Of a stretch of DNA of 64,000 nucleotides, positions 47,377 to 57,818 are shown one piece after another. The stretch lies in NCBI GenBank assembly GCA_040954595.2, contig CM082593.2, positions 3,923,434 through 3,987,433 of the forward strand. Reading direction: 5' to 3'. The notes below the pieces were generated by a model. The model ran no database searches and had not been told where the DNA came from. It saw only the letters and a program-made list of their open reading frames with translations. Both the position numbers and the translations under genes were made by a program. Origin of the DNA: Balanoglossus misakiensis (taxonomy: Eukaryota; Animalia; Hemichordata). Position 1 is the stretch's first letter; every line of letters begins with the position of its first letter.

Positions 47377-47485
47377 ATGGTCTGGAGTAGTACTCTGCGG
47401 TCGTTTATGCTGATGATAATTACAATGGTGGGATTCCAGTGCGATTATGTGAGGAGGGAGAATTATCCACACAACGTCACAATCG
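47377..47485 (+). CDS. iGluR exon 1 (signal peptide, ...NVTIG)
   Basis: [37 protein letters not shown]; donor G|gtgggt, phase 1. Confidence 0.8.
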
Positions 47486-55500: not shown

Positions 55501-57818
55501 TGATATTCTTTGGTCTTTTATTTAGACCAGATGTTTTTGTCTATGCGTATTAATACGAAAACAAATAATCTCGATAATTTCTTTCGTCCGTTTTATAATT
55601 CCGTTTGTGTTGTGTTGTTTTGCTTTGGTTTGGTTGTAATTTCACCGGCTGAACGCCAGAGAGCGGACATGGCAGTCGCCGGTATTACAATCATGGCCGA
55701 GAGGGAAGAAGTTGTGGATTTCACCAAACCATACTACCAATACGCCCTCGGCGTTATTATCCGAAGACCAGGTCGGCAGCGAGGAATCTTCGCCTTCATG
55801 GAGCCCCTCAGTGAAGCAGTCTGGGGTTGCATAGCTGCAGCGCTCTTTGTCGTTGGGATACTCCTGTTCATTGTGGCCAGATTTAGTCCGTACAGTTCAT
55901 ACAACATAGCCAAAATGCACGTGTGTGATTGTAAAGGGGACGATTTCAACCTCAAGAATAGCTATTGGTTTGCCTTGGCGTCACTCATGAATCAAGGTAA
56001 GCCATTAATACCTTATATTTGGGGTTTTTGTTACAATGCTGTTTATGCCCCAGATACTATACAATTGGCATCTTATGTTTTTTTCCGCATCTAACTCGAT
56101 CCTGTCTAATACTCAGACAGACATGCGTCGCGAGAGGCCACTGAAGTTGCCCCGACGTCCATCTAACCACCTGCTGTCAGGCACACAGTTCAATCGCCAA
56201 CCTGTATGTAAATCAGTCGCACAGTAGAATTCAAATGTAATATATTCTGCCCTTTTCATTAGCAGATGCCCTGTGACATTTCTGACGGTGATTGCGATAC
56301 GGCGTGACAAGTGTGTTTGTATTCACAGGTGGTGACACCGCGCCATATTCTATATCTGGGAGGCTACTCAGCGGTTTTTGGTGGTTTTTCACCCTTATCA
56401 TTATCGCCACGTACACGGCAAATCTGACGGCGTTTCTGACTGTCAGTCGCATGGAAACGCCCATCTCGTCGGTGGAGGAGCTCTCCAGGCAGAGCAAGAT
56501 CAAGTATGGTACAATAAGAGACAGTAGCGTCGTGTCGTTTTTCAAAAGGTCAACAATAAACCCATACCAGGTGAGGCACCGGTCTGAAGGAACAAGTGTC
56601 CGTCGCCATTTTGTTCGGCCATATGCCACGTCATTGTGCATATGTAATGAAACTTGGAGGAAGTGCAATGACGTGTCCAGGCCATTACGCAAGCGCAATG
56701 ACGTGATTATCATTCGTTTCTGTGTTGTCATTTACTGTTGCTCTATAAACCCGGCCATCCATTCATTTGTTTAATGGTGTAGTAAAACATTTCAGCCGAT
56801 CAGAATAGCAATATTAAACACAGAGGGGGTTCCTATTTATCATCGTGAATGATTGGGTCTCTCACAGTAAGGATATTTTATCGGATTTGTGCTCTTAAGC
56901 TATCGAGTACTTGTTCTTGTCTGCAGTCTTTGAATATGGGGATTGATTTGATAAAGAGCAAATTGGCCTGGCTCTCAGCGAGATCTGTATTTTGTATTTC
57001 TTGTCGTCTGCTAGCGTATGTGGCAGTTTATGAGCACGCTGGAAGACGAGGCGTTCGTGGACGACGTCCATGCAGGCTATCGGCGTGTGAAGAACGAAGA
57101 TTACGCCTTTATGTGGGACTATCCCGTTCTGGAGTTAGAGCATCGAAAAGACTGTGAACTGATGACGGTGGGAAAACCTTTCTACGAAAAGGGATATGGT
57201 TTTGTGACACCAGAGGGCGCGCAGTGGCGGGACGACATATCCATGAGGTAAGATACCTGAGTTTGTACAGAATATAGAGCAACAACTTTCTCTTGGAAAT
57301 CCATACAAGCTGAGTGCGAAGATATTCCGATAAAAAATGTTTTGATCGACAGCTCTTGTTAGTGAGTTTTCGTTATCATTGTCGCCGTGCGTTCGGCGTC
57401 GTTGCTATGCTGATGTGTTTTTTTATTTTTATGAACCTTTCACATTTCATTCCTGTCTTGATTTTTTTTAATGTAACCGCCAAGCATCCTGGAAATGAGA
57501 GAAGACGGGCTCCTTGAGAGGTATCGCAAGAAGACGTGGGAACTGGAGAGTGTGTGCGAGGACGAGGCGGCCAAAATCCGGACGTCCACGAACGAGATCG
57601 ACATCCAGAGCGTCGTGGGCGTGTTCTACATCCTGATCATGGGAGCGGCTCTCTCCCTCATCCTGGTTCTTGTGGAGTTGCTGTATTACCACCGTCTACG
57701 GCAGTGCTTTCGCCCGACGGTGACCGTTCACCCGAACGCCGATGGAAAGGCCATCGAGGTGAAAGAGGACTCGAATGCAGTCGAGGATAAAAGATCTTTA
57801 TCGAACTCTCGGGTGTAA
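47377..57818 (+). CDS. Ionotropic glutamate receptor subunit, delta-like (AMPA/kainate/delta/phi group), complete 14-exon gene, 891 aa
   Basis: join(47377-47485,49694-49849,50868-51122,51703-51893,52079-52132,52286-52423,52707-52913,53133-53255,54376-54480,55288-55479,55660-55996,56329-56570,57015-57247,57485-57818). All introns are GT-AG, phases are consistent, and the 2676 nt contain no internal stop. Signal peptide, ATD, S1 ([36 protein letters not shown]), M1, M2 ([11 protein letters not shown]), M3 ([11 protein letters not shown]), S2 ([18 protein letters not shown]), M4 and tail are present. Class assignment is by motif recall, not phylogeny. Confidence 0.95.
49694..49849 (+). CDS. iGluR exon 2 (ATD)
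   Basis: tttctgtag|GAGTG...; GVILEDHH...NLLPYTEL...SAFEIVES; donor CAG|gtacgt. Confidence 0.9.
50868..51122 (+). CDS. iGluR exon 3 (ATD)
   Basis: [14 protein letters not shown]...MPHIQ...[13 protein letters not shown]; donor G|gtaagt. Confidence 0.92.
51703..51893 (+). CDS. iGluR exon 4 (ATD)
   Basis: tttctctatag|[12 protein letters not shown]...[17 protein letters not shown]; donor |gtaagt. Confidence 0.88.
52079..52132 (+). CDS. iGluR exon 5 (54 nt, ATD)
   Basis: gttgcag|; [18 protein letters not shown] matches the A..LGM....HW pattern of iGluR ATDs; donor CAG|gtgagt. Confidence 0.88.
52286..52423 (+). CDS. iGluR exon 6 (ATD)
   Basis: tgtcttttag|; GITDSQLE...GIVILLRQ...[12 protein letters not shown]; donor |gtaagt; phase 0/0. 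Confidence 0.82.
52438..52564 (+). repeat. (TATG)n tetranucleotide microsatellite in iGluR intron 6
   Basis: Perfect run 52438-52546, followed by degenerate TATG/TCTG units. Confidence 0.97.
52707..52913 (+). CDS. iGluR exon 7 (ATD)
   Basis: ctttcag|; [17 protein letters not shown]...LMDTIRT; donor |gtgagt. Confidence 0.9.
53133..53255 (+). CDS. iGluR exon 8 (ATD)
   Basis: ttttttttcag|; [17 protein letters not shown] (GLSG.V.F motif); donor |gtaagt. Confidence 0.92.
54376..54480 (+). CDS. iGluR exon 9 (ATD-S1 linker)
   Basis: [11 protein letters not shown]...[12 protein letters not shown]; donor |gtaagc. Confidence 0.93.
55288..55479 (+). CDS. iGluR exon 10 (S1)
   Basis: EEPFV...[12 protein letters not shown]...[24 protein letters not shown]; donor |gtaagt. 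Confidence 0.96.
55660..55996 (+). CDS. iGluR exon 11 (S1, M1, M2)
   Basis: [25 protein letters not shown]...[12 protein letters not shown]...[13 protein letters not shown]; donor G|gtaagc. Confidence 0.96.
56329..56570 (+). CDS. iGluR exon 12 (M3, start of S2)
   Basis: attcacag|[39 protein letters not shown]...YGTIRDSSV; donor CAG|gtgagg. Confidence 0.96.
57015..57247 (+). CDS. iGluR exon 13 (S2)
   Basis: RMWQFM...[11 protein letters not shown]...DCELMTVG...KGYG...WRDDISM; donor AG|gtaaga, phase 2. Confidence 0.95.
57485..57818 (+). CDS. iGluR exon 14 (end of S2, M4, cytoplasmic tail)
   Basis: Acceptor cgccaag|C completes the Ser codon; ILEMREDG...SVC...[23 protein letters not shown]...SNSRV*. 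Confidence 0.93.

What the first reader, a model, noticed from the sequence alone, without database searches (positions are those of the whole stretch)
47377..57818. Atypical iGluR combining delta-like architecture, a non-glutamate pocket, an NMDA-type pore Asn and an altered gate
Seen: an intact 891-aa gene with all four features, each detailed separately below. Known: in vertebrates these traits are split between families (N site in NMDA receptors, WD pocket in GluN1/GluD, essentially invariant SYTANLAAF). Inference: a possibly undescribed glycine/D-serine/GABA-modulated, Ca2+-permeable or partly constitutive cation channel. The intact frame across 14 exons argues against a pseudogene. This is the best candidate for novel biology in the window.
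Basis: partly seen in the sequence, partly recalled or inferred. Interest (0 to 1): 0.8.

Follow-up and report, generated by a model that had tools for sequence, protein, structure and literature searches.

The report
Acorn-worm GABA-gated delta receptor
This intact gene, likely from an acorn worm, is the closest relative of a delta-type glutamate receptor already shown to open in response to GABA and carrying the same odd pore, gate and pocket residues, so it is likely an excitatory GABA channel of a known kind, though it keeps a 41-residue segment that the published test construct lacks.

Summary
The gene is real: 14 GT-AG exons, 891 aa, no internal stop, with pore Asn621, gate TYTANLTAF and an SSV/WD pocket. 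It is not an undescribed clade. It pairs with Saccoglossus SacGluD (100/100) inside the delta clade (100/100), at 82% identity over LBD+TMD. The SacGluD construct of Rosano et al. 2024 (PMC10861852) carries all four features and gave small GABA-preferring currents, not a constitutive or glycine-gated channel. The WD pocket is ordinary for deltas (31 of 40). Only the Asn (5 of 176 relatives) and the gate Thr (8 of 176) are rare, and only SacGluD has both. The Thr sits one residue before the lurcher site; the same change in GluA3 favours a closed gate, so 'partly constitutive' is unlikely. New point: the published construct lacks the 41 residues of window exon 8, a conserved amino-terminal-domain segment. 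Its weak currents may therefore understate the full-length channel. I found no ion-permeability or Mg2+ data for this paralogue. New member of a known kind; interest 0.3.

The parts
47377..57818 (+). Delta-class iGluR gene, 14 exons, 891 aa; orthologue of Saccoglossus SacGluD
47377..47485 (+). Exon 1: start codon, likely signal peptide (inferred from the hydrophobic stretch), first ATD strand
49694..49849 (+). Exon 2: ATD
50868..51122 (+). Exon 3: ATD (Pfam ANF_receptor, E 3.4e-7)
51703..51893 (+). Exon 4: ATD
52079..52132 (+). Exon 5: ATD (54 nt)
52286..52423 (+). Exon 6: ATD
52707..52913 (+). Exon 7: ATD
53133..53255 (+). Exon 8: 41 aa (371-411), phase 0-0, conserved C-terminal beta segment of the ATD; absent from the published SacGluD construct and from XP_002732006.1
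54376..54480 (+). Exon 9: ATD-LBD linker, start of S1
55288..55479 (+). Exon 10: S1 (E447 = AcaGluD E475; Y492)
55660..55996 (+). Exon 11: end of S1 (T520, R525, Ca2+-site E526 and D530), M1, M2 pore helix
55990..55992 (+). Asn621 codon (AAT) at the Q/R/N site; Gln at +1, Asp625 at +4 (56334-56336)
56329..56570 (+). Exon 12: M3 and start of S2 (alphaF S688-S689-V690 at 56523-56531)
56427..56432 (+). Thr656 (A7 position of SYTANLAAF) followed by the intact lurcher Ala657
57015..57247 (+). Exon 13: S2, W737-D738 (57114-57119), Ca2+-site D776
57485..57818 (+). Exon 14: end of S2, M4, short tail (32 of 42 identical to SacGluD), stop; weak AAG acceptor supported by colinearity with the orthologue

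Best explanation
The gene encodes a delta-class ionotropic glutamate receptor subunit that groups with Saccoglossus SacGluD, and it likely forms a GABA-preferring, excitatory cation channel that is predicted to be closed at rest and hard to open. Shown here: intact gene, clade position, residue identities. Shown in print for the orthologue: small GABA-preferring currents in wild type, and EC50 84 nM in the lurcher mutant. Inferred steps: (1) GABA binds between R525 (carboxylate) and D738/E447 (amine), with the SSV/WD lower lobe disfavouring glutamate; (2) clamshell closure pulls M3, but Thr656 at A7 likely biases the gate shut, as GluA3 A653T does, giving low efficacy; (3) the Asn621/Asp625 filter likely passes Na+, K+ and some Ca2+ and keeps AMPA-like polyamine rectification rather than NMDA-like Mg2+ block; (4) extracellular Ca2+ likely potentiates it through E526/D530/D776, the three acidic residues needed in starfish AcaGluD.
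For: Window+SacGluD 100/100, inside a 27-row delta clade 100/100 that holds Xenopus, Ciona, amphioxus, echinoderm and acoel proteins. 336 of 412 LBD+TMD residues are identical to XP_002732006.1; M2, M3 and all pocket residues match. The SacGluD construct shows the same N-site, gate, WD and S1/S2 motifs (read by eye) and was GABA-preferring. AcaGluD, with SSL/WD motifs, is best activated by GABA. GluA3 A653T (= GluA2 A621, A7) cut the kainate/glutamate ratio from 50% to 7% and raised EC50 about 3-fold. In a placozoan epsilon receptor, Asn at this site increased polyamine block and the +4 Asp was required for it. The Ca2+-site residues are conserved.
Against: This protein itself was never expressed, and the ATD is only 178 of 379 identical to SacGluD. 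Close paralogues can switch ligand: two amphioxus epsilon receptors at 73% identity prefer different agonists. The SacGluD data come from a construct lacking 41 ATD residues, so low efficacy may be an artefact rather than the effect of Thr656. M3 substitutions behave differently by background, and bulky A7 residues open NMDA receptors constitutively. One of the ten AcaGluD activity positions differs from SacGluD (P741 is Ala716 here). I-V and block were reported for AcaGluD only.
Confidence: 0.8

Rival explanations
1. The full-length receptor is a robust GABA-gated homomer. The small published SacGluD currents are an artefact of a construct lacking the last beta segment of the ATD, and Thr656 matters little.
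For: The construct runs from the exon-7 equivalent straight into the exon-9 equivalent; XP_002732006.1 has the same 41-residue gap. The newer Saccoglossus model begins inside the missing segment, 11 of its first 18 residues identical to exon 8. Pfam ANF_receptor stops at profile 298 of 353 against 348-352 in 4 of 4 other proteins. The segment is a confident beta hairpin plus two strands in a P. flava paralogue model, while residues 329-357 next to the gap have pLDDT under 50 in the SacGluD model.
Against: The lurcher version of the same construct gave efficacious GABA currents, so it reaches the surface and gates. Swapping the whole ATD barely changed AcaGluD. The exon is symmetric (phase 0-0), so the skipped form might be a real isoform.
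Confidence: 0.3
2. It works mainly as a subunit of heteromers with the other acorn-worm delta paralogues, damping their gating (Thr656) and tuning their pore (Asn621), and is nearly silent alone.
For: Acorn worms have three delta lineages: this one, P0010/P0011 and P0012-14. Wild-type SacGluD is 'generally inactive'. A653T acted in GluA2/GluA3 heteromers too.
Against: SacGluD gave currents when expressed alone, and deltas are described as functional homotetramers. No co-expression data were found.
Confidence: 0.2
3. One reading: a partly constitutive, glycine/D-serine-modulated channel with an NMDA-like Ca2+/Mg2+ pore.
For: Asn at the Q/R/N site and a GluN1-like SSV/WD pocket are present. Bulky A7 residues make NMDA receptors constitutively open.
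Against: The lurcher Ala is intact. The orthologue is inactive at rest and GABA-selective. The same A7T favours closure in an AMPA receptor. The +1 residue is Gln and +4 is Asp, as in AMPA/delta pores; NMDA Mg2+ block relies on GluN2 N and N+1 asparagines (recalled, no call). In an epsilon receptor Asn raised Ca2+ permeation about 3-fold versus about 10-fold for Gln.
Confidence: 0.07
4. Like vertebrate GluD1/2 it acts mainly as a non-conducting synaptic organiser that binds GABA and signals without ion flux.
For: Small wild-type currents and a gate change predicted to favour closure. It differs from AcaGluD at G567 (Ala), F640 (Leu) and V806 (Ser).
Against: It keeps the invertebrate-type S713, R721, K782, M805 and an acidic 825 residue, and SacGluD does conduct. 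No partner protein was examined.
Confidence: 0.1

Closest known systems
[quoted passage not shown] 2024, PMC10861852
   Same: Sister in the tree (100/100); 82% identical over LBD+TMD; identical pore loop, M3 and pocket residues, including Asn at the Q/R/N site and Thr at A7.
   Different: ATD only 47% identical; the window gene has the 41-residue exon 8 that the construct lacks; Ala716 in place of Pro at the AcaGluD P741 position.
AcaGluD, Acanthaster planci delta iGluR (GABA EC50 13 uM, inward rectifying, Ca2+-potentiated)
   Same: Same ambulacrarian+acoel delta subclade (95/88); E475, S712, S713, W762, D763 and the three Ca2+-site acids conserved.
   Different: About 39% identical overall; Gln at the pore site and Ala at A7; Val instead of Thr in S1; it is orthologous to other acorn-worm paralogues (P0010/P0011), not to this gene.
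Vertebrate GluD1/GluD2
   Same: Delta clade; WD lower-lobe motif; S1 threonine; Ca2+-site acids.
   Different: Vertebrate deltas give no ligand-gated current in oocytes, have Gln in the pore and intact SYTANLAAF, and carry Tyr/Ala/Lys/Asn/Pro at the AcaGluD 640/713/721/741/825 positions, where this gene has Leu/Ser/Arg/Ala/Glu.
Human GluA3 A653T variant (PMC5639461)
   Same: The same Ala-to-Thr change at A7, one residue before the lurcher site.
   Different: A disease variant of a glutamate-gated AMPA receptor; here the Thr is the wild-type state in two species.
NMDA receptor GluN1/GluN2
   Same: Asn at the Q/R/N site; SSV/WD-like pocket resembles GluN1 (GluN1 motifs recalled and partly).
   Different: Sequence is AKDF-type (no NMDA chain among the best 60 solved-structure hits); +1 Gln and +4 Asp as in AMPA/delta; the orthologue works as a homomer.

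Membership tests
Delta class of AKDF iGluRs | Falls in one clade with vertebrate GluD and invertebrate deltas | tested here: met
   27-row clade 100/100 with Xenopus P0155, Ciona P0166 and AcaGluD P0006; same placement in 172-row FastTree, 0.964. Root is on three proteins of unverified class.
Delta class of AKDF iGluRs | ATD-S1-M1-M2-M3-S2-M4 architecture | tested here: met
Delta class of AKDF iGluRs | Non-glutamate pocket: S1 Glu and Arg, alphaF S-S-hydrophobic, W-D | tested here: met
   E447, R525, S688-S689-V690, W737-D738 align with AcaGluD E475, S712-S713-L714, W762-D763
Delta class of AKDF iGluRs | Acidic Ca2+-potentiation site at the LBD dimer interface | tested here: met
   E526, D530, D776 = AcaGluD E554, D558, D801; residues only, not function
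GABA-gated invertebrate delta receptors | GABA opens the wild-type channel better than glutamate, glycine or D-serine | not testable with these tools
   Shown in print for the orthologue SacGluD, not for this protein
SacGluD orthogroup | Sister to SacGluD, to the exclusion of other acorn-worm paralogues; shares Asn621 and Thr656 | tested here: met
   100/100; the only one of 176 relatives with both residues
NMDA receptors | Closest sequence relatives are GluN subunits | tested here: not met
   Best 60 solved-structure hits are all AMPA, kainate or delta; no GluN sequence was in the tree
NMDA receptors | Voltage-dependent external Mg2+ block and high Ca2+ flux | not testable with these tools
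   Asn at the N site is present but +1 is Gln and +4 is Asp; no permeation data for SacGluD in the text read
Lurcher-type constitutive channels | Substitution at A8 of SYTANLAAF | tested here: not met
   Ala657 is intact; the change is at A7
AMPA/kainate receptors | alphaF G-S/A-T and L/M-E pocket; clade with GluA/GluK | tested here: not met
   SSV and WD; separate 100/99 AMPA+kainate clade holding human GluK1 and lamprey GluA4-like

The most novel reading that the evidence does not exclude
Acorn worms have an old third delta lineage that has turned a GABA-gated excitatory channel into an NMDA-like one: the full-length receptor carries a substantial Ca2+ flux with voltage-dependent divalent block through its Asn ring, behind a high-threshold Thr gate. 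This was missed because the one published construct lacked 41 ATD residues and its pore was not examined.
Probability: 0.1. Interest if true: 0.7.

Novelty: new member of a known kind. Interest (0 to 1): 0.3.

Why it matters
As a family assignment it is ordinary: GABA-gated invertebrate delta receptors, including this gene's orthologue, were published in 2024. Two smaller points have value. First, the gene gives a full-length model showing that the tested SacGluD construct lacks a conserved 41-residue ATD segment, so its 'generally inactive' label, and the 84 nM GABA EC50 of its lurcher form, deserve a repeat with the complete protein. Second, it is a natural pairing of an Asn filter with an A7 threonine, the same gate change as a human GRIA3 disease variant, kept in two species at 82% identity. 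It offers a ready test of what Asn does in a delta pore and of whether A7T closes or opens a gate in this background.

Tried and rejected
No whole genome is held for the window. No RNA holder was listed for 53000-57900; that is no evidence on expression or on exon 8 skipping, and no reads were laid. An ATD-only homologue search with the SacGluD protein scored nothing among 4744 candidates, so no orthologue beyond Saccoglossus was found; P. flava and Glandiceps appear only through the other two paralogues, which is weak evidence of absence. Exon 8 alone found nothing among solved structures or in Pfam. The eLife 2018 alignment file has its rows cut, so I could not tell which of its two Saccoglossus deltas is this gene. 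A 62-row IQ-TREE run timed out without support values, with the same topology. Earlier scan findings: nothing by sequence, words or nearby place; the genome-wide look-up listed 8 of 26 notes, all on other genes. No second iGluR piece in the window (tblastn); no Pfam family in the 100 longest of 161 flanking frames of 62 aa or more; no Rfam match. Rejected: pseudogene (intact frame, 82% conserved); lurcher-like leak (A8 intact); NMDA membership; RNA-editing explanation of the pore residue (Asn is genomic AAT).
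Full report
Observation. Reading 46800-58700 and fixing the splice sites gave 14 exons from ATG 47377 to TAA 57818, every intron GT-AG, 2676 nt, 891 aa, no internal stop (a first attempt with several boundaries misplaced by one to three bases broke the frame). Exons hit the Pfam iGluR domains in the expected order.

Relatives. Exon 11 found 5 proteins among 97 candidates. The best was Saccoglossus kowalevskii XP_077862981.1 (P0001, 82%), then four echinoderm proteins at 49-54%. 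Its cluster holds a longer model, XP_002732006.1 (P0266, 840 aa). Against that model the window protein has 336 of 412 identical residues over LBD+TMD, 178 of 379 over the ATD and 32 of 42 in the tail. The pore loop, M3 and pocket motifs are letter for letter the same. The window is therefore likely from an acorn worm other than S. kowalevskii; this is an inference from the protein.

Phylogeny. Of 264 proteins held, 209 covered at least 350 residues of the LBD+TMD core; 33 redundant, mostly arthropod kainate rows were dropped, leaving 176. FastTree on 172 rows (5 more dropped as fragments or poorly aligned) put the window with P0001 (1.0) in a delta clade (0.964). IQ-TREE (LG+G4, 434 columns) on 42 rows, thinned from 62 to fit the time limit, gave window+P0001 100/100. 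That pair lies inside a 16-row acorn worm/echinoderm/acoel group (95/88), inside a 27-row delta clade (100/100) that also holds Xenopus, Ciona, amphioxus and nemertean proteins. AMPA+kainate formed a separate clade (100/99). Acorn worms have three delta lineages: this one, P0010/P0011 (orthologous to starfish AcaGluD) and P0012-14. The exact position of this lineage in the 16-row group is weak (80/47). No named NMDA, epsilon, phi or IR sequence was in the tree, and the root is on three proteins of unverified class. NMDA is excluded only by the solved-structure ranking: none among the best 60 of 313 and of 162 hits.

How unusual are the four traits? Among 176 relatives, Asn at the Q/R/N site occurs in 5 and Thr at A7 in 8 (P0001, six proteins of one clade of which four were named as amphioxus, and a sea spider protein); only P0001 has both. 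Among 40 delta-clade rows, 31 have WD and 34 have Thr for the first Ser of the motif. So the pocket and the architecture are the delta norm, and the two rare residues mark this paralogue.

What is already published. Rosano et al. 2024 (PMC10861852; I read parts 1-6 of 8 of the main text, covering Results, Discussion and Methods, and all four text parts of the supplement; figures are not held) expressed SacGluD in oocytes. Wild type gave small currents with GABA the most potent ligand; the lurcher mutant had a small constitutive current and GABA EC50 84 nM. The authors call wild type 'generally inactive'. Read by eye, the construct (after XM_002731960.1) encodes the same N-site, gate, S1, S2 and WD motifs and matches P0266 at the ends and at the junction discussed below; I noticed one differing ATD residue. 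I-V, block and Ca2+ potentiation were reported for starfish AcaGluD: inward rectification, no Mg2+ block, reversal at -16 mV. The term SYTANLAAF does not occur in the main text, and a search for 'SacGluD' returned only this paper. Searches found no other study of this receptor in the library, which lacks most subscription papers. Fig. S2C (constitutive current values), S1 (tree) and S5 (alignment) are pictures that I could not see; they may bear on the leak question and may show the gap.

Mechanism. Ligand: the pocket matches AcaGluD position by position except Thr for V548 and Val for L714. Rosano et al. found V548T did not shift selectivity, and Wang et al. 2026 (PMC13648236; abstract, sections 13-14, passages) confirm that AcaGluD with SSL/WD prefers GABA, while warning that close paralogues can differ. 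Gate: the change is at A7, not A8. The same substitution in human GluA3 (A653T = GluA2 A621) lowered the kainate/glutamate ratio from 50% to 7% and raised EC50 from 0.53 to 1.65 mM without harming trafficking (PMC5639461, passages and section 7). Against this, bulky A7 residues make NMDA receptors constitutively open (PMC3434102, passages), and M3 effects depend on background. For an AKDF protein whose orthologue is quiet at rest, closure bias is the likelier reading. Pore: in a placozoan epsilon receptor, Ser-to-Asn raised Ca2+ permeation about 3-fold against about 10-fold for Gln and increased polyamine block, which needed the +4 Asp (bioRxiv 10.1101/2024.06.25.600656, passages and section 9 part 1). 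This gene has the +4 Asp and a Gln at +1, so I predict a rectifying mixed-cation pore with some Ca2+ flux, not an NMDA pore. Ca2+ potentiation: E526, D530 and D776 match the three residues required in AcaGluD. Of the ten AcaGluD activity positions, the window matches SacGluD at nine and differs at P741 (Ala716). All channel properties of this protein are inferred.

The one new point. The published construct and P0266 go from the exon-7 equivalent directly to the exon-9 equivalent; the 41 residues of window exon 8 (53133-53255) are missing. The segment is real. All 16 other delta rows in the alignment have 34-60 residues there, and a profile from them ranks the exon-8 frame first among 2230 window frames (E 1.7e-7). 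The newer Saccoglossus model starts inside it, with 11 of 18 residues identical. Pfam ANF_receptor ends at profile position 298 of 353 on P0266 but at 348-352 on 4 of 4 other proteins. In an AlphaFold model of the P. flava paralogue P0010, the matching residues 413-451 form a hairpin and two strands, mostly near pLDDT 90. In the P0266 model, residues 329-357 beside the gap fall below 50; this is suggestive only. Against making much of it: the lurcher form of the construct worked, ATD swaps barely affected AcaGluD, and the exon is phase 0-0, so skipping could be natural.

Verdict. Observation confirmed; interpretation partly supported. This is a new species member of the GABA-gated invertebrate delta receptors and the orthologue of an expressed receptor with the same four features. 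The remaining interest lies in the apparently unmeasured Asn pore, the A7 threonine and the incomplete published construct. Ramos-Vicente et al. 2018 (PMC6307864; sections 6 part 1 and 7, two supplement files searched) already note that gate and Q/R-site residues vary in non-vertebrate iGluRs. Interest 0.3.

Noticed in passing
window 53133-53255 versus P0266 (XP_002732006.1) and the PMC10861852 supplement: The published SacGluD expression construct lacks the 41-residue equivalent of exon 8, a conserved ATD segment; the current NCBI annotation splits the Saccoglossus gene into a 166-aa and a 497-aa model.
   Followed up: yes
P0126, P0138, P0164, P0206, P0211, P0224: A delta-clade group (four members named as Branchiostoma) also has Thr at A7, together with Arg-Lys at the pore tip; most of these models are only about 470-540 aa. 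A likely independent gain of A7T in a subunit with a positively charged pore.
   Followed up: partly
P0230 (Pecten), P0194 (Spirometra), P0264, P0251: Four other non-NMDA iGluRs have Asn at the Q/R/N site, so this state arose more than once outside NMDA receptors.
   Followed up: partly
P0003, P0005, P0009, P0011: Some echinoderm and acorn-worm delta models carry a 12-21 residue insertion just after the pore QQ, at the position of the window's intron 11; an alternative pore-loop exon or a modelling artefact.
   Followed up: no
P0016/P0017 and P0125: Amphioxus P0016/P0017 has WE instead of WD; nemertean P0125 has a divergent pore (ATGVD).
   Followed up: no
window aa 586-603 (exon 11, about 55880-55935): The M1-M2 intracellular loop has a C-x-C motif conserved in SacGluD (Cys599, Cys601); possible lipidation or metal site, untested.
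   Followed up: no
window 52438-52574: (ATGT)34 microsatellite in intron 6.
   Followed up: no
window 28599-28893, 29165-29780, 43250-43644: Short tandem arrays with periods 155, 237 and 130 upstream of the gene; no Pfam or Rfam match found in the flanks examined.
   Followed up: no
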